Source: Kagunavirus LF7074P1
Reading direction: 5' to 3' (one strand)
DNA: 41,072 nucleotides
Sequence record: OZ035752.1
The notes under the pieces were generated by a model. It made no database searches, had not been told where the DNA came from, and saw nothing but the letters and a program-made list of their open reading frames with translations. Both the position numbers and the translations under genes were made by a program. This document shows, piece after piece, positions 2,796 to 38,720 of the stretch (positions are counted from its first letter, which is position 1; each line of letters begins with the position of its first letter).

Positions 2796-2816
2796 AGCCC
2801 CGAAAGGGGCTTTCTT
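2796..2816 (+). terminator. terminator-like hairpin
   Basis: AGCCCC-GAAA-GGGGCT stem-loop followed by TTCTT; same stem-loop recurs at 4364-4381. Confidence 0.45.
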
Positions 2817-2821: not shown

Positions 2822-3898
2822 ATGCTATTAACTTTAGCGCCACAGGGTTTATCTATGAGCTTACTTACATCACTAATCAGCCACCAGATATGGCTGCAAC
2901 GAACCGCATCCGGTGAGGTGAAAGACCTCGCGCCGTTCATTAAGGAGATGCGGGACGAAATCAAACGGCAGGTGCTGCTATTCGGCGACGGCGGTCGCAG
3001 CACTGCGCGACTGAATAAACTGTTACGTGACCTTGAAGAAGCACTGACAGGACTTACTGGTGACTGGCAAACAAAGCTGGCAGAAGACCTCAAGGAACTG
3101 GCGGTGTATGAAGCTGAGTGGAACGTAAAGACCCTGACCGCCAACGTAGATGCGGAATTTGTTACGCCCACCGCCGAACAGGTGTGGGCCGCTGCTGAGT
3201 TTCAGCCATTATCATTGAGTGGCAAGCCAGTTGATTTCACTAAACTGATGTCAGGTTGGGGTGAAACGGAAGTAGCACGTCTTGTAACCGGCGTTAAGAT
3301 GGGCTTTGTACAAGGTCAAACAACACGGCAGATTGTTAAGAATGTAGTAGGCGCCGGTGGGCTGGCTGACATCTCTGAGCGTAACGCCGCTACCGTCATC
3401 CGCACCGCGCTGTCTCACGTGTCCAACGAAGCCCGTAACGAGACGTACCGCCAGAACGACGACATCATCGAGAAGTACGAGTGGGTGTCAACGCTGGACA
3501 GCCGTACCAGTACGATTTGCAGAGCCAGAGACGGAATGACGTGGGAAATTGGTAAAGGGCCGATGCCCCCTGCCCATCCGAACTGCCGGTCGTGCACGGC
3601 TCCGGTAATCAGTTCCGAGTTCGACTTCCTCGATAAAGGCGCAAAACGCGCGGCTAAGGGCGCCGAAGGCGGTACTCAGGTAAGTGCGGACACCACCTAT
3701 TACGAGTTCCTGAAACAACAACCGGCATGGTTTCAGGACCAGGCGCTCGGCCCTGTTCGCGGTAAGATTTTCCGTAACAGCGGTATATCGCCGGAAGAGT
3801 TTCGCGTAATATCTGTAGATGGTTTCGGGAACCCGCTGACGCTTAAGCAGATGGCGGAACTCGATAAACGTGTTGCTGATTATCTGAAAGGGGAATAA
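2822..3898 (+). CDS. minor head / head morphogenesis protein (putative)
   Basis: 358-aa ORF directly after portal (position of Mu F / SPP1 gp7-type genes); in-frame alternative ATG at 2855; stop overlaps next start (TAATG). Confidence 0.5.
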   Translation: MLLTLAPQGLSMSLLTSLISHQIWLQRTASGEVKDLAPFIKEMRDEIKRQVLLFGDGGRSTARLNKLLRDLEEALTGLTGDWQTKLAEDLKELAVYEAEWNVKTLTANVDAEFVTPTAEQVWAAAEFQPLSLSGKPVDFTKLMSGWGETEVARLVTGVKMGFVQGQTTRQIVKNVVGAGGLADISERNAATVIRTALSHVSNEARNETYRQNDDIIEKYEWVSTLDSRTSTICRARDGMTWEIGKGPMPPAHPNCRSCTAPVISSEFDFLDKGAKRAAKGAEGGTQVSADTTYYEFLKQQPAWFQDQALGPVRGKIFRNSGISPEEFRVISVDGFGNPLTLKQMAELDKRVADYLKGE

Positions 3899-4359
3899 TG
3901 ATGGGCTTTTTCAAAGTAACTGACGTACCGTCTCGTCGCGTAGTCCAGTACGCCCGCGTGTCTGGCTCTGGCGAGAACGTGGTGTTTATTGAAGACGAAA
4001 GTGTACTCGGAACACCAGTGGACGATATGCCGTTTGCGGACAAGACCGGTATTGCGCTGCCAGCGGCAGGTATGCTTTATGAGATTCAGTACCTGGCGGA
4101 TGCTGGTGATGTGTATTTCTCCGTACAACCGCAGGACGCTGAACTGGCAGACGGCAGCGCAAATATCGCTGTCGAAGTTAAGGCGGGCAAAGCACCATAT
4201 GCGCTGACCTGGTACAAAGACGGGAAGGAAGTGGTAAACGCCCCGGAAGAGGCTCTGTCTCTGACGGTTAACGCAGTTGGTGAATACTTCGTTAAAGTCA
4301 CTGATGCCGATGGTATAGAGGCCGTAAGTAAAGCAGCGAAGGTTACTAAGCCAGAATAA
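3898..4359 (+). CDS. hypothetical virion-associated protein
   Basis: 153-aa ORF, RBS GGGGA, start overlaps upstream stop; C-terminal beta-rich segment (YALTWYKDGKEVV..GEYFVKVTDADG) resembles Ig-like domains; strong terminator follows. Confidence 0.5.
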   Translation: MMGFFKVTDVPSRRVVQYARVSGSGENVVFIEDESVLGTPVDDMPFADKTGIALPAAGMLYEIQYLADAGDVYFSVQPQDAELADGSANIAVEVKAGKAPYALTWYKDGKEVVNAPEEALSLTVNAVGEYFVKVTDADGIEAVSKAAKVTKPE

Positions 4360-4363
4360 ACTG

Positions 4364-4384
4364 AAGCCCCGAAAGGGGCTTTTT
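4364..4384 (+). terminator. intrinsic terminator
   Basis: AAGCCCC-GAAA-GGGGCTT stem-loop followed by TTTT. Confidence 0.7.
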
Positions 4385-4423
4385 AGTGCCTGTGATTATT
4401 CCAGTTATTCCACTCAATTGTAA

Positions 4424-4477
4424 ATGTTGGAATAAACTATTCGAATAGTTGACTTTTCACCAAAAATGTGCTAAGCT
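4424..4477 (+). promoter_or_regulatory. promoter-like element with upstream palindromic site
   Basis: half-sites GAATAA (4430-4435), CTATTC (4437-4442), GAATAG (4443-4448) including perfect palindrome AACTATTCGAATAGTT (4435-4450) abutting -35 TTGACT (4449-4454); 17-bp spacer; TGc-TAAGCT extended -10-like (4469-4477). Confidence 0.4.
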
Positions 4478-4657
4478 CCACCTGAGCTTGTGAAGTATGA
4501 ACAAGCGACCGCGGCGCGGGCAGGTAACGGAGCGGGACGTAAGTCCTGAGTGTAGTTACGCTGACGCGTTCGGAAGGGCCATACTCTATTGCTTGTGTAA
4601 AAAGTAACTGGTTTACTGAGATTACGCCGTTTCTATGTTTAAATGATAAGGACTAGC

Positions 4658-4683
4658 GCCCCGCTTTAAGGCGGGGCTTTACT
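4658..4683 (+). terminator. terminator-like hairpin upstream of Rz-like gene
   Basis: GCCCCGC-TTTAAG-GCGGGGC stem-loop followed by TTTACTT. Confidence 0.5.
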
Positions 4684-4701
4684 TATCGAGAAAGGGGAAA
4701 C

Positions 4702-5088
4702 ATGAATCTTAAAGCAACTGTCGTAGCGGGAGCATGTTTCATCATCCTGGCTTACGCACACGGCATCTACCAGTATCGCAGCGGCTGGAACGGAGGCCGG
4801 GCGAATCTCGTTTCGCAGCAACAGCAGAAAGCACAGGCTGAGTTAGCTAAGAAAACACAACGGCAGCGGCAGGATGAATCGAAGGCCGCCGCCGCTGATA
4901 ACGAAGGCAAGACGAAATCAGAGGTAATCACCCGTGAAGTCGTTAAGTACATTAAAACGCCTGGCCGCAGCGTGTGCACTTTTGACCCTGAGCGCGTGCA
5001 GCTCAAGTCCCGCGCCGTCGCAAACGCCAATTCCATCCCCGGATACGACGATGATGCAGCCGCCGTGCAAACTGGCACTGCCAAGTAA
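4702..5088 (+). CDS. Rz-like inner-membrane spanin (putative)
   Basis: 128 aa; RBS AAAGGGGAAA; single N-terminal TM segment (TVVAGACFIILAYAHGIY) then Q/A/K/E-rich region; overlapped by +1-frame lipoprotein ORF. Confidence 0.6.
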   Translation: MNLKATVVAGACFIILAYAHGIYQYRSGWNGGRANLVSQQQQKAQAELAKKTQRQRQDESKAAAADNEGKTKSEVITREVVKYIKTPGRSVCTFDPERVQLKSRAVANANSIPGYDDDAAAVQTGTAK

Positions 5089-5197
5089 CGACGCGGACGA
5101 GGATTTAGCTATTGACGTCCAGAACGCAGAATGTGTACGGCAACTGAGACTTAAAGTGTTCATGTTGCAGGATTACGTGAGGAATATTCTGGAATAG
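4934..5197 (+). CDS. Rz1-like outer-membrane lipoprotein spanin (putative)
   Basis: 87 aa; GTG start with RBS GAGGT 8 nt upstream; signal peptide with lipobox LSAC; Pro-rich mature region with second Cys; starts inside and extends past Rz-like ORF in another frame. Confidence 0.6.
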   Translation: MKSLSTLKRLAAACALLTLSACSSSPAPSQTPIPSPDTTMMQPPCKLALPSNDADEDLAIDVQNAECVRQLRLKVFMLQDYVRNILE

Positions 5198-5206
5198 TTG
5201 CCTTGT

Positions 5207-5253
5207 ATGTTGGAATAATTTATTCTTGACATGTAAATCCGGGTGGCCCGGAT
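5207..5253 (+). promoter_or_regulatory. promoter-like element / palindromes upstream of scaffold gene
   Basis: block ATGTTGGAATAAtTTATTC (palindrome GAATAA-t-TTATTC 5213-5225) homologous to 4424-4442, followed by TTGACA (5226-5231) and inverted repeat ATCCGGG-tgg-CCCGGAT (5237-5253). Confidence 0.35.
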
Positions 5254-5276
5254 TCCAACGTCCAGGGGACATACTG

Positions 5277-5903
5277 ATGAGCGAAGAAGTGAAAGACGAA
5301 ACTATCGAACAACAAGAGACTAAGACCACGTTTACCAAAGAAGAAGTTGACGCGCTGGTATCCGGTCTTAAAGCTAACAACGAGAAACTCTTGTCTGAAA
5401 AGAAAGCTGCCGCCGCTGCCGCGAAAGAAGCCGCAGATGCGAAGCTGAAAGCCGAACAGGAACGCGCAAAACAGAACGGCGAACTTGAGGCATTCGAGAA
5501 AACGTTGCGCAGTCAGTATGAGCCAGTACTCGCCGAGAAAGACGGTAAGATTAGCAAAATGGCTGAGCGTATCCTCGGCGCAGAACGTAAATCAGTTATC
5601 AGCCAGTTGTCTGGCATGTTGATTGATGCGAGCGCAGCGGATATTATCGCTATGATGGTCAAGACCGAATTTGACGGCGATGACGTTGTGACCAAGTTCA
5701 CAGGTGCAGATGGTAATGTCATCACCACCGACGCAGAGCAATTTAAAAAGTATCTGCGTGAGCACAAAGCATTTTCGCATCTGATTAAAGCAGATGCAGC
5801 AACCGGCGGCGGGGCTTCCGGTAACAAAAATTCTACTGGCGGGGCCGGTGGTGCGGACGTAATCCAGCAAAAACTTAACGCCAAATACGGCAAACGAGGA
5901 TAA
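5277..5903 (+). CDS. scaffolding protein (putative)
   Basis: 208 aa from ATG 5277 (RBS GGGGA); Ala/Lys/Glu-rich coiled-coil-like sequence; immediately upstream of capsid gene; ORF-track start 5226 is a TTG without RBS. Confidence 0.55.
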   Translation: MSEEVKDETIEQQETKTTFTKEEVDALVSGLKANNEKLLSEKKAAAAAAKEAADAKLKAEQERAKQNGELEAFEKTLRSQYEPVLAEKDGKISKMAERILGAERKSVISQLSGMLIDASAADIIAMMVKTEFDGDDVVTKFTGADGNVITTDAEQFKKYLREHKAFSHLIKADAATGGGASGNKNSTGGAGGADVIQQKLNAKYGKRG

Positions 5904-6897: not shown

Positions 6898-6919
6898 AAA
6901 GGGGCTTCGGCCCCTTTTT
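6898..6919 (+). terminator. intrinsic terminator
   Basis: AAAGGGGC-TTCG-GCCCCTTT stem-loop followed by TTTTT, directly after capsid gene. Confidence 0.8.
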
Positions 6920-10573: not shown

Positions 10574-10600
10574 AAGGCCCCGTTTGGGGCCTTTTTTTTT
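10574..10600. terminator. bidirectional intrinsic terminator
   Basis: AAGGCCCC-GTTT-GGGGCCTT stem-loop followed by T9; between convergent genes; exact reverse-complement copy at 23108-23127. Confidence 0.8.
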
Positions 10601-20148: not shown

Positions 20149-23103
20149 ATGTCAAGCGGATGCGGTGACGTTTTAAGCCTGGCGGATTTACAAACCGCCA
20201 AGAAACATCAGATTTTCGAGGCCGAGGTTATCACTGGCAAATCCGGCGGTGTCGCCGGTGGTGCCGATATTGATTACGCGACAAATCAGGTTACTGGACA
20301 GACACAGAAGACGTTACCTGCCGTGTTGCGTGATGCTGGTTTTAAACTGGCAGATTTTGATTTCACGTCAGGCGGTACACTATCCGCTAACGACCGAAAC
20401 ACCGCAGTTTTGTGGCCGTCGTCCTCTGGCGGTGACGGGGATTGGTACTATTGGTTGGGTGCTCTACCAAAAATTATCCCAGCGTCATCTTCTCCGCAGT
20501 CCACCGGTGGCGTGGCAGATGGGGCGTGGCAGCCTGTCGGGTCGGTCATACTGCGGCAGCAAATATCAGATGTAAACGGTGCAATTCTGTACCCAGATTT
20601 ACATGTGGCGCGATGGAAGGACGAATACGACCCGCGCGCATGGGGCGCCGTGGGCGACGGCGTAACTGATGATACTCAATCTATTTTTAATGTATTAGCA
20701 GCTTCCCCCAACAATTGGATTATAGACGGCAGGGGTTTGACTTATAAAGTTTCCCAATTACCTGACATTAGTAAATTTAATAATGCTGCATTCGTTTACG
20801 AGCGCGTAGCCGGGCAACCGCTTACTTATGTAGCTGATGGCTTCTTTAACGGCTCACTAACTAAGGTGACGGATACCCCGTTCTACAACGCATGGACGCA
20901 GGATAAAACTTTCGTCTACGACCATGTTATTTACGCCCCGTTTATGGCGGGCGAACGACATGGTGTTAAAAACTTACATGTAGCTTGGGTTCGCTCTGGA
21001 GACGACGGGCAGACTTGGTCAATGCCTGAGTGGTTGACTCCAATCCATGCTGACTATAATGCTAGTGTTTCTACGGACAGAGTTAACTACCACTGCATGA
21101 GCATGGGTACGTGCGGCAACCGATTATATGCAGTTATAGAAACTCGCTACTTATCTAATATGCGGATGAAGAAGGCAGAACTTTGGTCACGCCCAATGCC
21201 GTATTTTAGACACCCAACCGGCGGAATAACTATTAGTTCTGGCTCCACTACTGCTACCATTGTCATAGAAAATCATGGCCTAAAAGCAGGAGATGCGGTT
21301 AACTTCTCTAATACATCGGCAACTGGCGTATCGGGTAATATGACGGTTTCGTCTATAATTAACCGAAATACGTTCACTGTTACGCTCTCAAGCCCGGCGA
21401 GTTCCACCATAAACAATGCGGGTGTTACCTGGAACTTCGCAACGCGATTCTGGGACAGCCCGTGGGAAATTACCGAATTGCCTGAGGTAGCATACTCCAC
21501 TAATGCTGATTTGTGTGTCACGGAGACACATAGTTTTGCGGTTATAGATGATGTTAACTACACTATCGCTGTCGGCTATCACAACGGCGATGTGTCCCCT
21601 AGGCGTCTCGGTGTCTTGTATTTTAGTAACGTGTATGACAATCCTGGCGTATTCGTTCGTCGCACTGTCGCTCAGGCATACGCTGATAACGCTTCTGAGC
21701 CGTGCGTGAAAAGTTATGGTGGTGTGTTATACCTTACCACACGCGGCACATTACCTACTTCCCCTGGCTCTACACTGGCGATGAGCGCCGATTCTGGGCA
21801 AAACTGGAGCTACTTGCGATTTCCGAACAATGTACATCACTCCAATCTTCCGTTCGCTAAAGTAGGTGACTATCTCTACATCTTTGGTACAGAACGTGCC
21901 TTTGGTGAGTGGGAAGGTGGCGAGCAGGACAGCCGCTATGAAGGTTCGTATCCGAGGACCTTTATGTGCAAAGTTAATGTGTCGTCCTGGCCTTCATCTT
22001 TAGATGATGTTCAGTGGTTTAATATTACCGACCAAATATACCAGGGTCATATCGTTAACTCTGCTGTCGGCGTCGGCTCGGTCTGTGTTAAAGATGGCTG
22101 GTTGTACTATATCTTTGGTGGGGAAGACTTCTTCTCTCCCTGGAGCATAGGGGATAACAGTGCGAAGTTATGGTACAAACATGATGGGCATCCGGCTGAC
22201 TTATATAGCTACCGGATAAAGATTGAAGACCACCCGTACGTATCACGTGATTTCAAATACGGAGCAACTCCTAACCGTACAATACCTGTCGCCATGGGGG
22301 TAGATGGTGTACGCCATGTAGAAGCACCTTTAACGTTTGACAATGATGTAAGCGTGTACTCCCTGCATGTAACGGGGCTGGAATACGATGGTACACAACA
22401 GTCTGCCGTGCGCGCACGGTTTGATGGTGATTACGGGCTGATTTCAAAAACAGTCCCCACTAAAACCCCATCGGGTCAAAGACTGATAGTTAGCGGTGGT
22501 GATGGTGCATCCAGTTCCGATGGTGCGTTGCTGCAACTGTACGGGGCAAACCATGCAACGCCTAACAGGGCTATTATGTATGCGTCAGGAGGCTTCTACT
22601 CATACAACAATTTTCTTCCTTACTTAGACTCGCAAGTGTCTTTAGGTTCGGCAGGTAATAGGTGGACTACGGTGTACGCGGCCACCGGTACGATAAACAC
22701 GTCTGATGGTACACTTAAGACGGACAAAGAGGAAATTGAGGGACAACTCCTTACCGCATGGGAGGATATACATGTAATATCTTTTAAGTGGCTTGAAAGC
22801 CTAGCAATCAAGGGTGACACTGCAAGGATACACTTCGGTGTGATAGCCCAAGATGTGCGAGACATCTTGGTCAACCATGGGCTTATGGAGAAAGATTCTA
22901 CCGATTGTAAATATGCTTTCTTGTGCTACGACTCAATTGAAGCTGCGTATGATATTGATGAAGATGGCCAGACTGTACAAGTATCCCCTCCCGGCGGCAG
23001 ATGGGGGGTTAGGGCGGACCAGATGTTCTTCATAGAGATTGCCTATCAGCGTAAGAAGATGCGCGAGTTCGAGAAGAGGCTGGCAGCACTAGAAGATAAA
23101 TAA
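20149..23103 (+). CDS. tailspike with sialidase-like Asp-boxes and C-terminal intramolecular chaperone-like domain
   Basis: 984 aa; RBS AGAGGA; Asp-boxes SGDDGQTW (20995-21018) and SADSGQNW (21784-21807); GAVGDGVTDD motif; C-terminal TSDGTLK segment (about 22699-22719) as in autoproteolytic S74-type chaperone domains. Confidence 0.75.
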   Translation: MSSGCGDVLSLADLQTAKKHQIFEAEVITGKSGGVAGGADIDYATNQVTGQTQKTLPAVLRDAGFKLADFDFTSGGTLSANDRNTAVLWPSSSGGDGDWYYWLGALPKIIPASSSPQSTGGVADGAWQPVGSVILRQQISDVNGAILYPDLHVARWKDEYDPRAWGAVGDGVTDDTQSIFNVLAASPNNWIIDGRGLTYKVSQLPDISKFNNAAFVYERVAGQPLTYVADGFFNGSLTKVTDTPFYNAWTQDKTFVYDHVIYAPFMAGERHGVKNLHVAWVRSGDDGQTWSMPEWLTPIHADYNASVSTDRVNYHCMSMGTCGNRLYAVIETRYLSNMRMKKAELWSRPMPYFRHPTGGITISSGSTTATIVIENHGLKAGDAVNFSNTSATGVSGNMTVSSIINRNTFTVTLSSPASSTINNAGVTWNFATRFWDSPWEITELPEVAYSTNADLCVTETHSFAVIDDVNYTIAVGYHNGDVSPRRLGVLYFSNVYDNPGVFVRRTVAQAYADNASEPCVKSYGGVLYLTTRGTLPTSPGSTLAMSADSGQNWSYLRFPNNVHHSNLPFAKVGDYLYIFGTERAFGEWEGGEQDSRYEGSYPRTFMCKVNVSSWPSSLDDVQWFNITDQIYQGHIVNSAVGVGSVCVKDGWLYYIFGGEDFFSPWSIGDNSAKLWYKHDGHPADLYSYRIKIEDHPYVSRDFKYGATPNRTIPVAMGVDGVRHVEAPLTFDNDVSVYSLHVTGLEYDGTQQSAVRARFDGDYGLISKTVPTKTPSGQRLIVSGGDGASSSDGALLQLYGANHATPNRAIMYASGGFYSYNNFLPYLDSQVSLGSAGNRWTTVYAATGTINTSDGTLKTDKEEIEGQLLTAWEDIHVISFKWLESLAIKGDTARIHFGVIAQDVRDILVNHGLMEKDSTDCKYAFLCYDSIEAAYDIDEDGQTVQVSPPGGRWGVRADQMFFIEIAYQRKKMREFEKRLAALEDK

Positions 23104-23107
23104 AACT

Positions 23108-23130
23108 AAGGCCCCAAACGGGGCCTTTTC
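23108..23130. terminator. bidirectional intrinsic terminator
   Basis: AAGGCCCC-AAAC-GGGGCCTT followed by TTTTC; between convergent tailspike and replication genes. Confidence 0.75.
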
Positions 23131-23781: not shown

Positions 23782-25208
23782 TTCTTACCTCGTCTCTTCA
23801 TATAATTAAGTAGTTCATCCTGTACAGACCTTTTCTCGTCTGTGCGCGCGGCGACAACTTCATCAAGAGTATCTCGGGCTATTATTTGATAAATGAATAC
23901 AGACCGTTTGTACCCAGACTGCATCTGCCTTACCGGACCTATGCGCTCGATAACCTGCAGATAATGTTCCAGGTTCCACCCCTGACTCATAAAGGCCATG
24001 TGATGTCCGCCGTGTTGTAGCGACAGCCCGTGGCCCGCGGAGGCCGGGTGTATCAGGAGCATAGGTATCTCCCCACGGTTCCACGCGTCCATCTGCTTAT
24101 TACCCTTAGCACCTTTGGCAAACGCCTGTGCCTGCGGGAATCGCTTAAGGATGCGCTCCAGTTCGTGCTTGAACTGATAGGCTACCAGTAATGGCGCACC
24201 CTGCAACTCCTCAACAATGGACTCAAGCGCATCCAGTTTCGTGTCGTGCACCTTCTCCCAGTCTTTCGTTGCTTCGCCATCAGGCCCCGACACATACACG
24301 GCACCAGATGCAATTTGCAGGCACTTAGACGTCTTCGCCGCAGCGTTAGCCGCTTCAACTTCTCCGCTCTCCAGCTCCGCGAATAGCTTCTCCTCCATAT
24401 CGAGGTACGCCTGCCGCGCTTTCTTCGGCAGGTCGATTTCAACCGGTACGATAACAGGCGCTTCACACCCAAACCACTCTGCGGCGTCAATCGTGAGACT
24501 AATGTCTTTCATCTTCTGGTGGATTTCATTATCCGCACCAGGACGCGCATGATACTCCCGCGCCATCGCCGACTTACCTTTTTGCACAGAGTTGAACCAG
24601 CGGTCGGTGAACGCAGTGTACGATGAACCGAGGCGCTCGCCAGCGTCGATAAACCAGTTCTGGCCCCACAGGTCTTTGAGGCCGTTAGGCGACGGTGTGC
24701 CCGTCAGATTGATGAAACGCTTAACTTTACCGAACGCCACTTTGCTGAGCGCCTTTGCCCGCTTGCTACCACCAGAACGGCTACGGAATGACTTCAGTTT
24801 CGTACTCTCATCCGCAACGATAACCGTAAAAGGCCAGTCGTCTTTGCCGTAGTAGTCAATCAGCCACTCGATAACTTCGTAGTTGGTACACACCACGTTA
24901 GCATCTGACTCCAGCGCCGCGATGCGGCGCTTCTCTGAACCTGTTGCATCTACGACACTCAGACATGGGAAGTCCCAACGTGCCTGTTCTGCAGGCCACG
25001 TACCGGAAGCAACACGTAAAGGAGCCAGAATTAACACGCGGTCGTCATCATTAAGTTGGCCGTTGCGGAACAGTCGGTTGAGTACCCACAACGTTGCGGA
25101 ACTTTTGCCCGCGCCCATCGAAGCCCAAATATTACAGCGAGGATGCCGCAGCATGAATGAAGTCATGAGCTTTTGGTACTCTCGACGGATAAATTTAGAC
25201 ATAATCAA
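23778..25208 (-). CDS. SF2 helicase (SNF2-like)
   Basis: 476 aa; motif I ASMGAGKSS; motif II VADEST. Confidence 0.75.
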   Translation of the reverse strand: MIMSKFIRREYQKLMTSFMLRHPRCNIWASMGAGKSSATLWVLNRLFRNGQLNDDDRVLILAPLRVASGTWPAEQARWDFPCLSVVDATGSEKRRIAALESDANVVCTNYEVIEWLIDYYGKDDWPFTVIVADESTKLKSFRSRSGGSKRAKALSKVAFGKVKRFINLTGTPSPNGLKDLWGQNWFIDAGERLGSSYTAFTDRWFNSVQKGKSAMAREYHARPGADNEIHQKMKDISLTIDAAEWFGCEAPVIVPVEIDLPKKARQAYLDMEEKLFAELESGEVEAANAAAKTSKCLQIASGAVYVSGPDGEATKDWEKVHDTKLDALESIVEELQGAPLLVAYQFKHELERILKRFPQAQAFAKGAKGNKQMDAWNRGEIPMLLIHPASAGHGLSLQHGGHHMAFMSQGWNLEHYLQVIERIGPVRQMQSGYKRSVFIYQIIARDTLDEVVAARTDEKRSVQDELLNYMKRRGKK

Positions 25209-25399
25209 CCCTTAATGTAGAGTACCAGCTCTTTACGCCCGAACGCCGTAACGTTACCCGTTACATCTTCGATAACCAGTTTACCGTTTGACTCGACGTA
25301 CACCGTATCAACGGCAACAGGGTGGCGGGTCTTAACGTTGAAAATCATATCGCCAGGTACGATGTCACGTGCTGGTTTGCGGTCATATTCGTGTTTCAT
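25205..25399 (-). CDS. hypothetical protein (64 aa)
   Basis: RBS AAGGA; ATGA overlap with helicase gene. Confidence 0.5.
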   Translation of the reverse strand: MKHEYDRKPARDIVPGDMIFNVKTRHPVAVDTVYVESNGKLVIEDVTGNVTAFGRKELVLYIKG

Positions 25400-25429
25400 T
25401 TCTCAATTCCTTATATTGTTGGTGTGTGA

Positions 25430-25717
25430 TTAACTATAATAGCCCGCTATTAGGTCGTCAACCTGTTTAAACGAACCAACGACAAAAACATTTGCACCAC
25501 GTTTACGCATCCGCTCGTGCTCTCGTAACTGGTGCGGGTCCGGCTTCGTGTTTTCGTCTTTCTTAACCTCGACGAACCAGATGATGCCACCAGGGAGAAT
25601 TACCAGCAGGTCGGGGGCGCCCGCTCTATTTTCGTACGACAATTTGCGTACGAGGCCTCCCAGGGCCTCGAATCGCTCTTTTGCGTATTTCTGCACGCGC
25701 CCCTCAGGCGTACTCAT
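25430..25717 (-). CDS. VRR-NUC domain nuclease (putative)
   Basis: 95 aa; PD-(D/E)xK-type residues in APDLLVI..FVEVKK. Confidence 0.6.
   Translation of the reverse strand: MSTPEGRVQKYAKERFEALGGLVRKLSYENRAGAPDLLVILPGGIIWFVEVKKDENTKPDPHQLREHERMRKRGANVFVVGSFKQVDDLIAGYYS
25433..25461 (-). promoter_or_regulatory. sigma70-like promoter with palindromic operator
   Basis: minus-strand TTGACG-17 bp-TATAGT; operator AATAG-N4-CTATT at 25438-25451; overlaps 3' end of VRR-NUC gene. Confidence 0.5.
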
Positions 25718-25798
25718 CTATACACCCCTCCCGTTTCGTATGCGCGATACCGCAGCGAGGGCAGATTCGACAGTCTTCTTCATATAACCAGTAAATTT

Positions 25799-25930
25799 TC
25801 ATTCCAGCACCCACAGATAAATTGCGATGAATATACCCAATACGGCAACCATCATGCCGTACTGACCCTCATGACAGTAAACACCGGCGGCGAATCCAGC
25901 CAGTACCGCGATAATCAGTTTACTTAGCAT
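25799..25930 (-). CDS. hypothetical small hydrophobic protein (43 aa)
   Basis: not in ORF track; start overlaps last codons of polymerase gene; two hydrophobic stretches. Confidence 0.3.
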   Translation of the reverse strand: MLSKLIIAVLAGFAAGVYCHEGQYGMMVAVLGIFIAIYLWVLE

Positions 25931-28169
25931 ATCGCTTCATCTCCGCACCTTCAGCTACAAGAGGGAACCCCTCCGCCCATTCCGGTAATTCGCACATCAA
26001 TCGTTCCAGTTCTGCTACATTATATTCCGGTGAATCTGGTGTCTCGCAGATAATCTCATCGTGTACGTGAAGTACAATCGGGTAGCCGTTTGCTTCTACG
26101 TTCAGCAGGGCATTAGCCAGCAAATCGCGGCACAGCGCCTGAGTGCAGTTTTCCACCAGTTTGCCTGAGTACGTGTACTGGAATCCCCACTGACGAGTTA
26201 ACTGGTTCTCCCCCTGATACTTGATGCGCACGTTAGTAGAAACTTTCCCGTCTTCGTCCGTCTCTTTCGATACGCTCAATCCGACGCCAGGGTAAGACAT
26301 TACGCGGCCTGACGGCAACGTCATACGCAACCACCAACCAGCGACTTTGTTGCCGTTGTTGTCTGTCTCCACGTTACGCGAAAACTTAACGCCGCGCGGC
26401 CCCGCGGTGAACTCTTTACCGGGATTGCGGATAGCCGCCATAGCTGCGTCTTCAATATCTCGCCAGAAAGCTACTGTTTCAGGATGAGACTCGCGCCACA
26501 TACGCTTGATAGCGTCGCAGGTACGCCACACTTTCTTGTCCAGAATATATGATGGTCGGTCATCTTTTTCACCGGGACGTGGTGGTCTCTTGGCTTCCTG
26601 AATACGCGCCCACTCATAACCCCGCGCGGTAGCGGCCCATATATGGCCTGGGAAAGTACCGTCCATTGTTTTAGCCATATCAACAAGGTTTAAGCCGAGG
26701 TTTTTAGCAAACTGAACGAAAGCACCGACACCACCTGCATAGCCGAGGCCCAATTCACATGCTTTACCAATCTGGCGCAGGTCACTACGGCTTTCGAGAA
26801 TGTAATCAGGGTCCATGCCAAACATCTTACCTGCAGTTACGCAGTAAATATCCAATCCCGCACGGAAGGTATCTAGCGCGGTTTCTTCTCCTGCCAGCCA
26901 TGCCAACCCGCGTCCTTCGACGTTAGAGTAATCGGCGACTACAAACTTATGTCCGGCTTCCGGTATGATGCAACTACGCACCGTCGACGCCGTTAGCTTG
27001 GCTACATCAAAACGGCGATGCGCACGACCTTTAAACAACAGGTCGATTCCGTAGGACAATGGGTGTGTTACTCTCCACCAGTCCTTCTCTGACATCCAGT
27101 CATAACGTACTTTCTTCTTTTTATTCTTCGGGTCGTCGTGATAGTACCCGCGCGCCAGGTTCTGCGGCTGGAAGCCTTTACCCGCAAACCGTAATGTACG
27201 CTTTGCCCCACCGTACTGGATGCAACCGCGGCGTCGGTCGTCCGACGAGCGACCTAACAGCAGCGGGTTATATTTCGTTGACGCGGTAGACGCGGCCCCG
27301 AGTCGCATCTCGATAATCGCGCTGGCGTCGTCCGGTAAATCGTCGTCAGCAAGCAGGTCGTTAAGCGTTGACTTCTGTGCGTTGTGAATACGGTGTGCCG
27401 GTGCGAGTTCACGCAGAATCGGAAGGAAGTCCTTTCCGGTAAGCGAGCCGCCGTATTTACGTTGGGCTTCTTCCTGTAACTGTGCTTTGTGCTTCTCCAC
27501 GGCTTCAATCGCGGCTTCCGCCAGTGCCACGTCAACCTTAAACCCGCGGTCATTTATTAACTGATCCAGTTCCAGTACCCGGTCCTCGAATTCAGAGTTA
27601 CCCCAACGCGGCAGCTTATAGAAGACTTCACGCATCGCAGTGATGTCGCTCACAGCGTACTTGATGAACAGAGCCCACTCGTCAGGGTGAGTTTCTGCGG
27701 TGTAGCGGCGGATTTTGTAGTTCTTTGGCGTCGGTTTAGAGAAACGCTTAATCAGCGCCTTGCCGCGTTTATCTTTCGCGTTGTCCGCGGATACACCCAG
27801 CACTTCGCACAACGCATCAAGTGAACCAGGCAGCGCGTGACGAAACGCCCAAATCATCGTATCAATGGTGTTGCTTACCGGAATATCAAAGCCCCAGCAG
27901 TGTTTCATGATGAGCCTGTCGAACATTGAGCCGTTATGCCACACCATCTTGATGCGACTGTTTGGCTTCACCAGACGGCGTAACGCGCGGTGCAAATCCC
28001 CCGGCATGTCGCTGCCGTCTGTGCAATCCCATACCCGCACAGGCTCGTCGTCAAAAGCATATGTACAAATAAGGACTTCGGTAGTTGGATGCTCAGCGTA
28101 AGCGTAGGAACCAACTTTCTTCAAATCGGCTTCGGAGAATGTTTCAAAGTCTAAGAACAGGTAACTCAT
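25920..28169 (-). CDS. family A DNA polymerase with 3'-5' exonuclease domain
   Basis: 749 aa; Exo I LDFETFS; motif A VADYSNVEGR; motif B RQIGKACELGLGYAGG; motif C VHDEII. Confidence 0.9.
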   Translation of the reverse strand: MSYLFLDFETFSEADLKKVGSYAYAEHPTTEVLICTYAFDDEPVRVWDCTDGSDMPGDLHRALRRLVKPNSRIKMVWHNGSMFDRLIMKHCWGFDIPVSNTIDTMIWAFRHALPGSLDALCEVLGVSADNAKDKRGKALIKRFSKPTPKNYKIRRYTAETHPDEWALFIKYAVSDITAMREVFYKLPRWGNSEFEDRVLELDQLINDRGFKVDVALAEAAIEAVEKHKAQLQEEAQRKYGGSLTGKDFLPILRELAPAHRIHNAQKSTLNDLLADDDLPDDASAIIEMRLGAASTASTKYNPLLLGRSSDDRRRGCIQYGGAKRTLRFAGKGFQPQNLARGYYHDDPKNKKKKVRYDWMSEKDWWRVTHPLSYGIDLLFKGRAHRRFDVAKLTASTVRSCIIPEAGHKFVVADYSNVEGRGLAWLAGEETALDTFRAGLDIYCVTAGKMFGMDPDYILESRSDLRQIGKACELGLGYAGGVGAFVQFAKNLGLNLVDMAKTMDGTFPGHIWAATARGYEWARIQEAKRPPRPGEKDDRPSYILDKKVWRTCDAIKRMWRESHPETVAFWRDIEDAAMAAIRNPGKEFTAGPRGVKFSRNVETDNNGNKVAGWWLRMTLPSGRVMSYPGVGLSVSKETDEDGKVSTNVRIKYQGENQLTRQWGFQYTYSGKLVENCTQALCRDLLANALLNVEANGYPIVLHVHDEIICETPDSPEYNVAELERLMCELPEWAEGFPLVAEGAEMKRYAK

Positions 28170-28189
28170 TATTTTCGACCCTTAGTAAA

Positions 28190-28208
28190 AAGGCCCAATG
28201 AAGGGCCT
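28190..28208 (-). terminator. terminator-like hairpin
   Basis: AAGGCCC-n6-GGGCCTT; on minus strand followed by TTTTT; between SSB-like and polymerase genes. Confidence 0.5.
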
Positions 28209-28228
28209 TAGTTAAATTGATTCAGATA

Positions 28229-28855
28229 TTATCGGCGACGACGTTCGCGGCGCGGTGCTTCATCCTCTTCATCGTCTTCAAGGTCATCGACGCTTGCGGC
28301 TACTTTAGAACCGCCAAACGCTTTACCTTCACCAACGTATTTAATAGCCAGCAGGTTAACGCCGAGGACTTTGTATTTCTGGCTGAACCAGATTTCAACG
28401 CTTACGTTAGCGACGCAGCCGCTGTAAACCTGTTCACCTTCAATCTGTTCGCCGTCTACGTTGAAGTCCTGCTCTACCTGAGTCTCACCTTTTTTAGAGG
28501 TTACAATCAGCGGCTGCTTCTGTGCCTTCGCTTTGAAGTAGAAGCCTTCTGGGAAGTCTTCAAACGGGTTATCACGCTCAGCAATGTCTTTAATCGCGCA
28601 TTTATCCATGTGCTTACCTTCGCCGTAGTTGGACTTCATCCATTTCTCGGCAGCAGCTGCGCCTAACGCTTCTTCAACTACAGCGTAAACAGTGTCGTAG
28701 AGTGCATCGATTTGAGCGTGGTCAGACGGCAGGATGATAGTCGCGCTGTACTGGCCTTTAGTGATTGAGCCATCATCGTTTTCACGGTCTTTTTCGCGTT
28801 CGAATACGTTAACCCATGCAGTGTTTACTTTACGCAGATTTAATTTCAGTCCCAC
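28229..28855 (-). CDS. ssDNA-binding protein (gp2.5/DUF2815-like, putative)
   Basis: 208 aa, GTG start; acidic C-terminal stretch DDLEDDEEDE; between Cas4-like exonuclease and polymerase. Confidence 0.5.
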   Translation of the reverse strand: MGLKLNLRKVNTAWVNVFEREKDRENDDGSITKGQYSATIILPSDHAQIDALYDTVYAVVEEALGAAAAEKWMKSNYGEGKHMDKCAIKDIAERDNPFEDFPEGFYFKAKAQKQPLIVTSKKGETQVEQDFNVDGEQIEGEQVYSGCVANVSVEIWFSQKYKVLGVNLLAIKYVGEGKAFGGSKVAASVDDLEDDEEDEAPRRERRRR

Positions 28856-28920
28856 AGTTCAGCCCTCATTAAGTTTAGATTTTCAGTTTACTCCGGGAAG
28901 CTGCCCGGCCAGTGATTAGA

Positions 28921-28949
28921 ACTATAATAGCTAACTATTCAGGTGTCAA
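28921..28949 (-). promoter_or_regulatory. sigma70-like promoter with palindromic operator
   Basis: minus-strand TTGACA-17 bp-TATAGT; operator AATAG-N4-CTATT at 28926-28939. Confidence 0.55.
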
Positions 28950-28953
28950 CACT

Positions 28954-30225: not shown

Positions 30226-30584
30226 CCTAAACTCTCCAAATACAAGTTTAATGCCTGTAGCTGTTCTTCTGTGGGGATGAAAGAATCATCGCGGTGTAAG
30301 TCGCTTAACTGTTGCAACATTCCTGCGAACTGACGTCTTGCGTCAACAGCGACCATGTGATGCTTTTCACTTTTGTATATTAATGTTTTCGGGTAATCCT
30401 CAAGCCTGCCAGACGATTTATTCACGCGGAGCGCGCGAGCTTCGTGCGCAATGTGGATGTACTTTTTGCCGTTTTGTAGCACAGTAGCTACACCGCTGTT
30501 CTTTCTGCGGTCACCGACGGTGTAAACTTTGTCGCCGCTGCGCAAATTAAGCCACCATTTATCAGTCATACCCTGTTCTCCCAC
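30222..30584 (-). CDS. hypothetical protein (120 aa)
   Basis: ORF with start/stop overlaps in early operon. Confidence 0.5.
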   Translation of the reverse strand: MGEQGMTDKWWLNLRSGDKVYTVGDRRKNSGVATVLQNGKKYIHIAHEARALRVNKSSGRLEDYPKTLIYKSEKHHMVAVDARRQFAGMLQQLSDLHRDDSFIPTEEQLQALNLYLESLG

Positions 30585-30838
30585 TGATCAATTAAATGTC
30601 GTGTCTTATGGTCGCAGTGCATAGCCCAGCTGTACATCGGCTCAAAGACATAAAAGTCAGGCTTGGCGAATGTCGTGCGCTTAATCTGCGACACGTGACG
30701 GCCTATATCTTTAGACAGCGGTACTTTGCCTAAGTACGCCATCTCTTCCATCTGGTGTGCACCGGACGGCGCACGCAATAACCATAGCGCCTCTGTGGTA
30801 TCCCGCCGGTCAACGGCGCGGTATAGTTGGTAAATCAT
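30566..30838 (-). CDS. hypothetical protein (90 aa)
   Basis: RBS GAGGG; overlaps downstream ORF. Confidence 0.5.
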   Translation of the reverse strand: MIYQLYRAVDRRDTTEALWLLRAPSGAHQMEEMAYLGKVPLSKDIGRHVSQIKRTTFAKPDFYVFEPMYSWAMHCDHKTRHLIDQWENRV

Positions 30839-30858
30839 AATCCCGACCCTCAGTTAAA

Positions 30859-30874
30859 GCGGCCCGAAGGCCGC
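30859..30874 (-). other. intergenic stem-loop
   Basis: GCGGCC-CGAA-GGCCGC between first and second genes of leftward operon; weak U-tract on minus strand. Confidence 0.4.
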
Positions 30875-30881
30875 GGGATAG

Positions 30882-31422: not shown

Positions 31423-31451
31423 ACTATAATAGCGAACTATTCACTTGTCAA
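31423..31451 (-). promoter_or_regulatory. sigma70-like promoter with palindromic operator
   Basis: minus-strand TTGACA-17 bp-TATAGT; operator AATAG-N4-CTATT at 31428-31441. Confidence 0.55.
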
Positions 31452-34717: not shown

Positions 34718-34747
34718 TTGAAAGTTCTTGACACATGTTTGTATAAT
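34718..34747 (+). promoter_or_regulatory. sigma70-like promoter (rightward)
   Basis: TTGAAA-18 bp-TATAAT; divergent from 34652-34680. Confidence 0.55.
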
Positions 34748-34774
34748 GGTTTTGGGACTTGTATATATTACGGA

Positions 34775-34806
34775 GTTGACGAACCCTCCCTGAGGGATTC
34801 GTCAAC
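34775..34806 (+). other. long hairpin / inverted repeat in leader
   Basis: GTTGACGAA-CCCTC-cct-GAGGG-a-TTCGTCAAC, 14 bp stem with one bulge, about 20 nt after predicted start site. Confidence 0.6.
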
Positions 34807-37675: not shown

Positions 37676-37680
37676 TCATC

Positions 37681-37989
37681 TTGGATAAATTTACTGAAAC
37701 AGTGACAGGCTGGCTTCTCGCCGCCGCGCTCGCCGGAGGGGTCATCGGACTACGACAACATAAGTCCGTTATTTCTGGCCCTATCGACGGATTCTGCTTT
37801 ATTGCTACTGGTTTCGCCTGCGCTGTATTTGGCGCACCTCTCGCGGCTCAATGGTTCGGTATCACGGGCGACCGTGAAATCGCTGGCCTTGGCTTCATCA
37901 TCGCTATTCTCTGGATGCCTATCTATTCCCGTCTCTCCAGTATCGTCGCTGGAGAATACATCGCACGTCGAGGAGGCACAGATGAATGA
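37681..37989 (+). CDS. holin (putative)
   Basis: 102 aa, TTG start; multiple hydrophobic segments; upstream of endolysin. Confidence 0.55.
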   Translation: MDKFTETVTGWLLAAALAGGVIGLRQHKSVISGPIDGFCFIATGFACAVFGAPLAAQWFGITGDREIAGLGFIIAILWMPIYSRLSSIVAGEYIARRGGTDE

Positions 37990-38254
37990 GTTATTCTGGT
38001 TCGGCGGTATGCTGGCAATCGGCGGCACATCGCTGTTTAATGTATACCATCCGAGCGTGGATGACGGGCTATTTGGTCGGGTGCTCTATATCCTGACTGC
38101 TATCGTCTGCGCTGCCGGATGTATCCACCTGTTACAGGGCAGCATGTCGCCGACGCTGCCTGAGACATTAATCACATTAGTTGCGCTGCGTCAGATTCGT
38201 CAGGCGTGGCTGTCATACGGAGGACATAAGCGTGTCTCGAAACATTTCAGATAA
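37982..38254 (+). CDS. small membrane protein (second holin/antiholin-like)
   Basis: 90 aa from ATG 37982 (RBS GGAGG); hydrophobic segments; overlaps holin end and endolysin start. Confidence 0.45.
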   Translation: MNELFWFGGMLAIGGTSLFNVYHPSVDDGLFGRVLYILTAIVCAAGCIHLLQGSMSPTLPETLITLVALRQIRQAWLSYGGHKRVSKHFR

Positions 38255-38720
38255 TGGATTGCATTTTACCGCCGCGTTTGAGGGGTTCCGCGGAACTGCG
38301 TATCGTGCTACGCCATCGGAAAAATACTTAACTATAGGCTACGGTCATTACGGGCCGGACGTGGCCCCAGGCAAGACCATCACGCCAGGGCAAGGCCTCC
38401 TGTTACTGAACCGTGATATGGCTAAGGCCGTAGCTGCGGTTGACGCAGCGGCGCACCATTCGCTAACACAGGCGCAGTTTGATGCAGTGTGCGACCTGGT
38501 CTATAACGCGGGGGCCGGCGTTATTTCGGCTACTACCGGTACAGGTAAGGCACTGCGCTCCGGTGATATCGCGACGTTACGGGCTAAACTGGCGCTGTTC
38601 ATCAACCAGAACGGCAAACCGTTACTGGGCCTTCGCCGCCGTACCGCCGGTCGCCTGGCGCTGTTTGACGGTAAACCGTGGCAAGAGGCGGAGGCTATCG
38701 GGCGCGCGGTGAAAGGTTGA
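38232..38720 (+). CDS. endolysin (lysozyme-like)
   Basis: 162 aa from GTG 38232 (RBS GGAGG 8 nt upstream); FTAAFEGFRG..YLTIGYGH resembles T4-lysozyme catalytic region. Confidence 0.7.
   Translation: MSRNISDNGLHFTAAFEGFRGTAYRATPSEKYLTIGYGHYGPDVAPGKTITPGQGLLLLNRDMAKAVAAVDAAAHHSLTQAQFDAVCDLVYNAGAGVISATTGTGKALRSGDIATLRAKLALFINQNGKPLLGLRRRTAGRLALFDGKPWQEAEAIGRAVKG

What the first reader, a model, noticed from the sequence alone, without database searches (positions are those of the whole stretch)
4702..5197. Rz/Rz1-like spanin pair located in the head-gene region, far from the holin-endolysin cassette
ORF 4702-5088 has a single N-terminal TM segment followed by a charged periplasmic-type region. 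Another frame (4934-5197, GTG start with good RBS) encodes a lipoprotein signal peptide with lipobox LSAC and a Pro-rich mature part that starts inside and runs past the first ORF, the classic overlapped spanin layout. Holin and endolysin are at 37681-38720 with no spanin next to them. So the lysis functions appear split, and the spanins sit between morphogenesis genes behind their own promoter-like element (4424-4477) and a terminator-like hairpin (4658-4683).
Basis: partly seen in the sequence, partly recalled or inferred. Interest (0 to 1): 0.45.

Follow-up and report, generated by a model that had tools for sequence, protein, structure and literature searches.

The report
Known spanin pair of a Kagunavirus
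The two overlapping genes are a real inner-membrane/outer-membrane spanin pair that sits among head genes far from the holin and endolysin, but this layout is already annotated and published for this phage group, so the finding is correct and ordinary.

Summary
The window is a complete Kagunavirus (Guernseyvirinae) genome. ORF 4702-5088 (128 aa, N-terminal TM helix) and the +1-frame ORF 4934-5197 (87 aa, lipobox LSAC, Cys22) exist as described and overlap by 155 nt. PHROGs call both Rz-like spanins (2.8e-56; 7.4e-30). Both frames and the lipobox Cys are kept in all 38 related loci examined. Only this ORF in the whole window carries a credible lipoprotein signal. Holins and endolysin lie at 37681-38720.

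All of this is known. K1H, K1ind and Sciku records annotate the pair at the same position. Kongari et al. 2018 list the 'Jersey' overlapped spanin family with a 155-bp overlap. Genome papers state that the spanins are separate from the holin/endolysin genes. Verdict: confirmed, already known, low interest.

The less ordinary part is the upstream 'promoter + hairpin'. The promoter (4449-4477) is conserved. It is followed by an unannotated ~100-nt RNA core (4481-4583) with covariation support and no Rfam match. This leader is more conserved than the spanin genes. Some relatives carry a second copy at the head of the operon that contains the holin and endolysin genes. Its function is not established; it could be a cis leader, an antiterminator or an sRNA.

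The parts
4364..4381 (+). GC-rich hairpin/terminator after the Hoc-like head decoration gene (3898-4359)
   Evidence: hairpin AAGCCCCGAAAGGGGCTT; annotated as a terminator at the equivalent place in Sciku; Hoc-like identity
4435..4450 (.). perfect 16-bp palindrome AACTATTCGAATAGTT overlapping the -35; its centre is at -41.5 if transcription starts at 4484 (inferred)
   Evidence: GAATAGTT 5 copies in the window against 1.3 expected, 0/100 shuffles; present in most relatives
4449..4477 (+). sigma-70-type promoter: -35 TTGACT (4449-4454), 17-nt spacer, extended -10 TG (4469-4470), -10 TAAGCT (4472-4477)
   Evidence: the TG and TAnGCT are invariant in every sequence type, including diverged and paralogous copies; not reported by the simple scan because it matches only 8 of 12
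4481..4583 (+). conserved structured RNA core of the leader: P1 hairpin 4486-4506, long three-helix hairpin 4509-4573, conserved tail AAGGGCC 4574-4580
   Evidence: six sequence types fold independently to the same shape; CM 126 bits; 95.6% of cells paired against 27-41% when slid; 9 pairs with compensatory changes; conserved G-U pairs fix the strand; no Rfam match
4497..4607 (+). 36-aa ORF inside the leader, annotated as a hypothetical protein in some records; judged non-coding
   Evidence: its ATG is deleted or changed in the diverged and paralogous copies; no PHROG hit
4658..4677 (+). GC-rich hairpin GCCCCGC-TTTAAG-GCGGGGC at the end of the leader, followed by TTTACTTATC (weak U-tract); leaky terminator or 5'-UTR stem
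   Evidence: compensatory stem changes (GCCCTGC/GCAGGGC, GCCCGGC/GCCGGGC) and an even poorer tail (TTAGCGTAT) in diverged relatives; not annotated as a terminator by CPT in Sciku
4702..5088 (+). i-spanin (Rz-like), 128 aa; TM helix at about residues 3-21 (nt 4708-4764); periplasmic Cys92
   Evidence: (phrog_2536, 2.8e-56)
4934..5197 (+). o-spanin (Rz1-like lipoprotein), 87 aa, GTG start, +1 frame; lipobox LSAC (nt 4988-4999), lipidated Cys22, Ser at +2; mature 66 aa with Cys45 and Cys67
   Evidence: (phrog_5672 7.4e-30; phrog_1267 6.1e-20)
5192..5254 (+). conserved intergenic element before the scaffold gene (ATG 5277): GAATAGTT half-site fused to a -35-like TTGCCT (5198-5203), -10-like TATTCT (5221-5226), hairpin 5236-5254
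   Evidence: 98.7% median identity; TTGCCT/TATTCT kept where TTGACA at 5228 is not; compensatory changes in the hairpin. Promoter function is inferred
37681..37989 (+). holin (first of two)
   Evidence: phrog_2359, 1.4e-29; equivalent Sciku gene annotated as antiholin/holin class I
37982..38254 (+). second holin/antiholin
   Evidence: phrog_2508, 6.6e-33; ATG at 37982
38232..38720 (+). endolysin (lysozyme family), GTG start behind the SD GGAGGA at 38219-38224
   Evidence: (phrog_33703 3.9e-48; phrog_7 4.8e-40)

Best explanation
4702-5088 and 4934-5197 encode the two-component spanin of a Kagunavirus and belong to the 'Jersey' family of overlapped spanins.

Shown here: the sequence features, the family matches, the conservation and the genome position.

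Inferred from the established lambda Rz/Rz1 model: the i-spanin is anchored in the inner membrane by its N-terminal helix, with a mostly helical periplasmic domain. The o-spanin is exported, lipidated on Cys22 and sorted to the outer membrane because residue +2 is Ser rather than Asp. The two bind through their periplasmic C-terminal parts and accumulate as complexes threaded through the peptidoglycan. Once the holins (37681-38254) release the endolysin (38232-38720) and the wall is degraded, the complexes fuse or disrupt the outer membrane, which is the last step of lysis. Spanins are inert until the wall is gone, so they need no physical or regulatory linkage to the holin. That is why they can sit in the morphogenesis cluster.

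Expression (inferred): from the conserved extended -10 promoter at 4449-4477, through a ~218-nt structured leader and a leaky hairpin, and/or by read-through from the upstream head genes.
For: ORFs and layout.

Family: phrog_2536 (2.8e-56), phrog_5672 (7.4e-30) and phrog_1267 (6.1e-20), all 'Rz-like spanin'.

Conservation: both frames and the lipobox Cys are kept in 38 of 38 loci while the signal peptide diverges. Periplasmic Cys residues are conserved. One relative (L039) has an almost separated arrangement.

Uniqueness: this is the only credible lipoprotein signal in the genome.

Existing annotation: the same genes are annotated i-spanin/o-spanin or Rz-like spanin in Sciku, K1H, K1ind1/2 and others, between the Hoc-like and scaffold genes.

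Literature: the Jersey spanin family lists K1G, K1H, K1ind1-3 and SETP3 and reports 'overlap by 155 bp' (PMC6139136). The separation from holin/endolysin is stated for Schulenberg (PMC6763661), Golestan (PMC7203180) and fBC-Eco01 (PMC9825357).

Lysis cassette: confirmed at 37681-38720.
Against: I found no genetic or biochemical test of this spanin family in the papers I read; function rests on features and analogy.

Pfam and NCBIfam give nothing above threshold. DUF2514 scores E 0.025 and P2 Rz1/LysC scores 13.7 bits against a cut-off of 27. The pair is therefore not a sequence-level member of the lambda Rz or P2 LysC families.

The AF2 single-sequence model is low-confidence beyond the first ~65 residues.

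The GC hairpin between promoter and genes could reduce expression from the dedicated promoter.
Confidence: 0.93

Rival explanations
1. The pair is a membrane protein plus lipoprotein with a non-lysis role, for example superinfection exclusion or receptor masking like T5 Llp or Cor. That would explain why it sits away from the lysis cassette.
For: Position inside the structural operon, far from holin and endolysin. No experimental test of the family was found in the papers read. No Pfam or NCBIfam spanin model is matched.
Against: The overlapped i/o architecture, the Pro-rich short mature lipoprotein and the conserved periplasmic Cys residues are the spanin signature. PHROG spanin families match strongly. 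No other spanin candidate exists in the genome, and a phage of a Gram-negative host normally needs one. The family was curated as spanins. A separate Imm-like superinfection immunity gene is annotated elsewhere in the relative Sciku.
Confidence: 0.04
2. Only the 128-aa ORF is a gene; the +1-frame 87-aa ORF is a chance open frame.
For: GTG start; embedded or overlapping ORFs are often artefacts.
Against: The frame is open in 38 of 38 relatives. The lipobox Cys is retained through different signal peptides and different start positions. The 36-aa part beyond the i-spanin stop is the most conserved stretch. Independent PHROG hits reach 7.4e-30.
Confidence: 0.01
3. On expression: the promoter at 4449-4477 does not serve the spanins. 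It makes a stand-alone ~195-nt small RNA that ends at the 4658-4677 hairpin. The spanins are then transcribed only by read-through from upstream head-gene transcripts or from weak leakage.
For: The leader is a covarying structured RNA that is more conserved than the genes around it (median 97.6% against ~92.5%). It ends in a conserved GC hairpin. A promoter-RNA-hairpin module of the same build occurs at a second locus. This is analogous to the lambda pR'-6S RNA-tR' arrangement.
Against: The U-tract after the hairpin is poor (3 U in this phage, 2 U in diverged relatives). CPT did not annotate it as a terminator in Sciku. The hairpin-to-SD spacing is conserved and mirrors the hairpin before the scaffold gene, which fits a 5'-UTR element. 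The Hoc-like gene upstream ends in its own terminator, so read-through from upstream is also impeded.
Confidence: 0.25
4. On expression: the leader RNA is a cis-acting processive antiterminator that works like HK022 put. It would let polymerase starting at 4484 pass the 4658 hairpin and the later terminators of the structural operon (about 6898 and 10574).
For: It starts within a few nt of the putative +1 and consists of two stem-loops with bulges. Some relatives carry two paralogous copies per genome, each just downstream of a promoter at the head of a long operon with internal terminators. These are the properties described for putL/putR (PMC9378689).
Against: The covariance model finds no similarity in the HK022 immunity region (best 7.1 bits, E 1.3). 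There is no functional data. This window has only one copy. The resemblance is architectural only.
Confidence: 0.2

Closest known systems
'Jersey' family of overlapped two-component spanins (Kongari et al. 2018; phages Jersey, SETP3, K1G, K1H, K1ind1-3 and others)
   Same: Same genes. The window is 95-99.5% identical in DNA to K1H/K1ind over this region. It shares the 155-nt overlap, the position between the Hoc-like and scaffold genes, and the annotation.
   Different: Nothing material; strain-level substitutions only.
Lambda Rz/Rz1
   Same: Type II inner-membrane protein plus outer-membrane lipoprotein encoded in overlapping frames; periplasmic Cys residues; presumed C-terminal interaction and membrane fusion after wall degradation.
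   Different: In lambda, Rz1 is fully embedded in Rz and the pair is the last part of the S-R-Rz cassette. Here the o-spanin runs past the i-spanin stop and the pair lies about 8 kb (circular map) from the endolysin. There is no significant sequence similarity.
P2 LysB/LysC
   Same: Overlapped architecture.
   Different: The P2 pair sits in the lysis cassette. The NCBIfam P2_Rz1 model scores only 13.7 bits against a cut-off of 27.
T4 PseT.3/PseT.2 spanins
   Same: Spanin genes located away from the holin (t) and endolysin (e) genes. This shows that unlinked lysis genes are an established arrangement (my own knowledge; not tested here).
   Different: T4 has a separated rather than overlapped gene architecture, and the sequences are unrelated.
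HK022 putL/putR RNAs (comparison for the leader only)
   Same: Promoter-proximal position, two stem-loops with bulges, up to two paralogous copies per genome, terminators downstream.
   Different: No detectable sequence or structure homology. The core is longer (~95 nt against ~70 nt). Function is untested.
Lambda pR'-6S RNA-tR' / StxS module (comparison for the leader only)
   Same: A promoter, a ~200-nt short transcript ending in a hairpin, then lysis genes followed by head genes (my own knowledge of lambda).
   Different: No Q-like protein was identified. The hairpin has a weak U-tract. Only the spanins, not the holin or endolysin, follow it.

Membership tests
Two-component spanin (i-spanin + o-spanin) | i-spanin: a single N-terminal transmembrane helix, with the rest periplasmic, charged and helical | tested here: met
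   Hydrophobic stretch at about residues 3-21 (KD 1.94); 19 K/R and 12 D/E afterwards. AF2 helix 3-64 at moderate or low confidence. No dedicated TMHMM-type tool was available.
Two-component spanin (i-spanin + o-spanin) | o-spanin: signal peptidase II signal with a lipobox Cys and no Asp at +2 (outer-membrane sorting) | tested here: met
   MKSLSTLKR-LAAACALLT-LSAC, Cys22, +2 Ser; matches a PROSITE PS51257-like rule. The Cys is kept in 38 of 38 relatives. LipoP/SignalP were not available.
Two-component spanin (i-spanin + o-spanin) | o-spanin gene embedded in, overlapping or directly following the i-spanin gene | tested here: met
   +1 frame, 155-nt overlap, extends 109 nt beyond the i-spanin stop.
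Two-component spanin (i-spanin + o-spanin) | short, Pro-rich mature o-spanin; periplasmic Cys residues available for intermolecular disulfides | tested here: met
   Mature 66 aa with 8 Pro; Cys45 and Cys67. i-spanin Cys92 is conserved in relatives.
Two-component spanin (i-spanin + o-spanin) | required for outer-membrane disruption; complements lambda Rz/Rz1 | not testable with these tools
   Needs genetics. I found no report for this family in the papers read.
'Jersey' spanin family (Kongari 2018) / PHROG 2536 + 5672/1267 | sequence membership | tested here: met
   phrog_2536 2.8e-56 over the full length; phrog_5672 7.4e-30; phrog_1267 6.1e-20. 99.5% DNA identity to K1H, a listed member.
Lambda Rz (Pfam PF03245) / P2 LysC (NCBIfam NF038368) | HMM score above the curated cut-off | tested here: not met
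   PF03245 is not among the hits at E<=1. NF038368 scores 13.7 bits against a cut-off of 27. The pair works like these families but is not a sequence-level member.
Canonical lysis cassette (holin-endolysin-spanin contiguous) | spanin adjacent to the endolysin | tested here: not met
   Endolysin ends at 38720 and the spanins start at 4702. No lipoprotein-signal ORF lies near the endolysin.
HK022 put antiterminator RNA (for leader 4481-4583) | sequence/structure homology to putL/putR | tested here: not met
   CM R1 on HK022 24000-31000: best 7.1 bits, E 1.3.
HK022 put antiterminator RNA (for leader 4481-4583) | promotes terminator read-through in cis without protein factors | not testable with these tools
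   Needs transcription assays.
Any Rfam family (for leader 4380-4720) | covariance-model score at or above the gathering threshold | tested here: not met
   0 hits at gathering. The best hits at E<=10 are 16 bits or less, well below each family's threshold.

The most novel reading that the evidence does not exclude
The spanin genes are headed by a previously undescribed, strongly conserved structured RNA (core 4481-4583, full leader about 4484-4680). It is transcribed from a conserved extended -10 promoter whose upstream 16-bp palindrome would be centred at -41.5 from the inferred start. In several relatives a paralogous promoter-plus-RNA copy heads the other rightward operon, the one carrying the holins and endolysin. 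The physically split lysis genes could therefore be coordinated, and the terminator-studded late operon read through, by one new phage RNA element. It could be a put-like cis antiterminator, or a regulatory leader or sRNA.
Probability: 0.3. Interest if true: 0.55.

Novelty: already known. Interest (0 to 1): 0.12.

Why it matters
As a spanin finding it matters little. It confirms that a first-pass reader can recognise an overlapped spanin pair from raw sequence, and that unlinked lysis genes are normal in Guernseyvirinae. Anyone engineering these therapeutic K1/UPEC phages should remember that the lysis functions lie at two loci.

The by-product is more useful. An unannotated noncoding leader with covariation support lies just upstream. 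It is more conserved than the neighbouring genes, is absent from Rfam and from E. coli genomes, and is present in 186 of the sequenced phage records searched. It gives a concrete, testable handle on how late and lysis transcription is organised in this phage group, whose regulation is essentially unstudied.

Tried and rejected
- **Pfam and NCBIfam on both proteins:** nothing above threshold. Only PHROGs recognise the family.
- **AF2 without an alignment on the i-spanin:** low confidence; useful only for the N-terminal helix.
- **The 36-aa ORF 4497-4607** (annotated as a hypothetical protein in Sciku and others): rejected as coding. Its ATG is missing in diverged and paralogous copies and it has no PHROG hit.
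- **TGTTGGAATAA repeat (4425, 5208):** two copies are not significant on their own (12 of 100 shuffles).
- **TTGACA at 5228 as a -35:** rejected. It has no -10 at 16-18 nt and is not conserved in L036/L041.
- **MAFFT plus RNAalifold on the leader (A3):** misaligned the inner helices and gave a poor consensus. I replaced it with per-sequence folding and a covariance-model alignment.
- **tRNA/tmRNA:** none.
- **Genome-wide pattern scan of 185,579 species genomes:** only GC-rich chance matches plus two phage-like contaminant contigs.
- **Antiterminator stem between helix P4 and the hairpin:** rejected because the P4 sequence varies while the hairpin does not.
- **Sigma-dependent pause element in P1:** not conserved across sequence types (my own reading of the sequences).
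- **Regulator candidates among the small proteins at 35-37.6 kb:** all fall in PHROGs of unknown function.
- **Kagunavirus time-course RNA-seq paper (PMC12645636):** does not mention spanins or holins. It places capsid genes and the lysozyme in one broad 'middle' class, so it cannot separate the two units.

Full report
**What the window is.** The 1.1 kb around the finding is 100% identical to Kagunavirus LF7074P3 and 99.9% identical to LF7074P1, a 41,071-bp record. 195 phage records match it, all of them Escherichia, Salmonella, Shigella or Raoultella siphoviruses of the Guernseyvirinae. The window is therefore a whole Kagunavirus genome.

**Observation.**
- The 128-aa product of 4702-5088 has one N-terminal hydrophobic helix (about residues 3-21, mean Kyte-Doolittle 1.94) followed by a charged region. 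A single-sequence AlphaFold model, low-confidence overall, makes residues 3-64 one continuous helix.
- The 87-aa product of 4934-5197 starts at GTG, 8 nt after AGAGGT, and lies in the +1 frame. It overlaps the first ORF by 155 nt and runs 109 nt beyond it.
- It has a basic n-region, a hydrophobic core, the lipobox LSAC with Cys22, Ser at +2, and a 66-aa mature part with eight prolines and two further cysteines.

**Is it more than chance?** PHROGs assigns the first protein to phrog_2536 (Rz-like spanin, 2.8e-56, full length). It assigns the second to phrog_5672 and phrog_1267 (Rz-like spanin, 7.4e-30 and 6.1e-20).

In 38 related loci from IMG/VR, with i-spanin identity between 62% and 99%, the +1 frame is always open and always carries a lipobox cysteine. 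The signal peptide itself changes (LSAC, LASC shifted by one residue, LSGC, LNGC, ITGC) and the start codon moves. In one relative (L039) the o-spanin begins only 14 nt before the i-spanin stop, so the arrangement there is almost 'separated'.

A scan of every possible start codon in the window for a lipoprotein signal returns this ORF as the only credible candidate. The others are an internal start inside the second holin and an out-of-frame ORF inside a tail gene.

**The lysis cassette.** 37681-37989 and 37982-38254 are holins (phrog_2359 and phrog_2508). 38232-38720 is a lysozyme-type endolysin with a GTG start behind GGAGGA. Nothing spanin-like follows it. The lysis functions are indeed split. 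On the circular map the spanins lie about 7 kb downstream of the endolysin, between the Hoc-like decoration gene (3898-4359) and the scaffold gene (5277-5903).

**Already known.**
- The same two genes at the same position are annotated 'putative spanin' or 'Rz-like spanin' in K1H, K1ind1 and K1ind2 (GenBank 2010 records and RefSeq). In phage Sciku they are annotated 'i-spanin'/'o-spanin', with reference to the K1G proteins.
- The curated spanin survey of Kongari et al. 2018 defines a 'Jersey' family of overlapped spanins. [quoted passage not shown] That is the same number I measured here.
- The Golestan and fBC-Eco01 papers report the same split (PMC7203180; PMC9825357).

**Mechanism.** The sequence features, family matches, conservation and position are shown by the calls above. 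The following is inferred from the lambda Rz/Rz1 paradigm:
- The i-spanin is anchored in the inner membrane.
- The o-spanin is lipidated on Cys22 and sent to the outer membrane, because residue +2 is Ser rather than Asp.
- The two associate across the periplasm and are held in check by the intact murein.
- They act only after holin-triggered endolysin release.

Because they are harmless until then, linkage to the holin is not required. T4 also keeps its spanin genes away from t and e (my own knowledge).

The pair is not a sequence-level member of the lambda Rz Pfam family or the P2 LysC NCBIfam family. It works like them but forms its own family. I found no experimental test of this family in the papers I read.

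**The 'own promoter and terminator'.**
- *Promoter.* The simple promoter scan does not flag 4449-4477, because TTGACT-17-TAAGCT matches only 8 of 12 positions. However, the -35, the TG of an extended -10 and TAnGCT are invariant across all relatives, including very diverged and paralogous copies. I regard it as a real promoter (inference).
- *Palindrome.* A perfect 16-bp palindrome, AACTATTCGAATAGTT (4435-4450), overlaps the -35. It would be centred at -41.5 if transcription starts at G4484. Its half-site GAATAGTT is over-represented in the window: 5 copies against 1.3 expected, reached in 0 of 100 shuffles. It recurs fused to a -35-like TTGCCT just after the o-spanin stop (5192-5203), and in the spacers of minus-strand promoters. 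It corresponds to the repeated motif that the fBC-Eco01 paper found with PHIRE.
- *Hairpin.* The hairpin 4658-4677 lies between this promoter and the spanin ribosome-binding site. Its stem shows compensatory changes in relatives. Its tail has only three U residues here and two in diverged relatives, and CPT did not annotate it as a terminator in Sciku. It is at best a leaky terminator and may be a 5'-UTR stem.

**The leader is a conserved structured RNA.**
- *Conservation.* The 277 nt from 4425 to 4701 are 95-99% identical in 178 of 186 matching phage records, including Salmonella Jerseyviruses. Across 37 loci the leader's median identity to the window is 97.6%, against about 92.5% for the spanin coding segments. 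In Jerseyvirus-like loci it is 97-98% where the spanin segments are 50-87%.
- *Not coding.* The 36-aa ORF inside it is not conserved.
- *Structure.* Six different sequence types, including paralogs, fold independently to one architecture, and the unconstrained minimum-free-energy structure equals the constrained one. That architecture is a 5' hairpin (4486-4506) followed by a long hairpin of three helices (4509-4573) and the conserved tail AAGGGCC.
- *Covariation.* One pair occurs as C:G, U:A and A:U, and the apical helix has at least five different sequences. On a covariance-model alignment of 53 hits (23 distinct rows), 95.6% of cells are paired, against 27-41% when the partners are slid. 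Nine pairs show changes on both sides. The covariation score is 0.242 against 0.096 in shuffles (0 of 500). The caveat is that the alignment was fitted to the model. Conserved G-U pairs argue for RNA on the + strand.
- *Distribution.* There is no Rfam match at gathering or at permissive thresholds and no tRNA or tmRNA. There is no match in 5,426 complete E. coli genomes. A scan of one genome for each of 185,579 species found only two phage-like contaminant contigs. There is no similarity to the HK022 put region.

**A second copy elsewhere.** Sciku and three IMG/VR genomes carry a paralogous promoter-plus-RNA copy. It lies about 11 kb away, at the head of the other + strand operon, the one that ends with the holins and endolysin.

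This window has only one copy. At the equivalent locus it has a different strong promoter (TTGAAA-18-TGtTATAAT, 34718-34747). That promoter is followed by about 200 nt of noncoding, strongly folding sequence (z = -4.3) and a terminator at 34948-34972. The 3' 100 nt of this module are shared by 334 phage records.

**What the leader does is open.** The structural operon contains several strong hairpin terminators on the + strand, at 2796, 4364, about 6898 and 10574. A promoter-proximal, two-stem RNA present in up to two copies per genome resembles the HK022 put arrangement as described in PMC9378689. The resemblance is architectural only. A stand-alone sRNA ending at the hairpin, as in lambda pR'-6S-tR', or a stabilising or regulatory 5' UTR are equally compatible with the data. 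The one Kagunavirus time-course RNA-seq paper found does not resolve spanin against holin timing.

**Verdict.** Novelty: already known. The interest of the finding as stated is low. The upstream leader RNA is the only part that might repay further work.

Noticed in passing
window 4481-4583 (core), about 4484-4680 (whole leader), + strand: Unannotated conserved structured RNA directly downstream of the promoter at 4449-4477. It has covariation support and no Rfam match, and it is more conserved than the flanking genes (median 97.6% against ~92.5%). It is found in 186 phage records and in no E. coli genome.
   Followed up: yes
L003 (Sciku) 37503-37700; L060 11816-11920 (-); L096 12248-12352 (-); L107 8505-8609: A paralogous second copy of the same promoter and RNA heads the + strand operon that contains the holins and endolysin in some relatives. 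The window lacks this copy.
   Followed up: partly
window 34718-34975, + strand: At the locus where relatives have the second RNA copy, the window has a different near-consensus promoter (TTGAAA-18-TGtTATAAT). It is followed by about 200 nt of noncoding, strongly folding sequence (z = -4.3; hairpin 34781-34812) and a terminator at 34948-34972. Only the 3' ~100 nt are widely shared (334 phage records).
   Followed up: partly
window 4435-4450, 5192-5199, 28933-28940 (-), 31435-31442 (-): The GAATAGTT motif is over-represented (5 copies against 1.3 expected). It occurs as a perfect palindrome centred at -41.5 of the leader promoter's inferred start, as a half-site fused to a -35-like box before the scaffold gene, and in the spacer of minus-strand early promoters. 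This suggests one phage regulator that switches early to late transcription. It matches the PHIRE motif reported for fBC-Eco01.
   Followed up: partly
window 5198-5276: The 79-nt spacer between the o-spanin and the scaffold gene is 98.7% conserved (median). It contains a conserved promoter-like pair (TTGCCT-17-TATTCT) and a hairpin at 5236-5254 with compensatory changes in Jerseyvirus-like relatives. The more obvious TTGACA at 5228 is not conserved.
   Followed up: partly
window 4360-4448 and equivalent places in L004-L041: The distance between the Hoc-like gene stop and the leader promoter varies from 253 to 1117 nt among relatives, so this is an insertion hot spot. The contents of the longer versions were not examined.
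   Followed up: no
window 5277-5600: The 5' part of the scaffold gene occurs as two unrelated alleles among otherwise close relatives (about 98% or about 50% identity to the window). The switch point lies right at the start codon.
   Followed up: no
window 2796-2811, 4364-4381, 6898-6917, 10574-10593, 23100-23129: Similar GC-rich hairpin terminators of the form (A)AGGCCCC-N4-GGGGCCTT punctuate the + strand structural gene cluster. Some look bidirectional.
   Followed up: no
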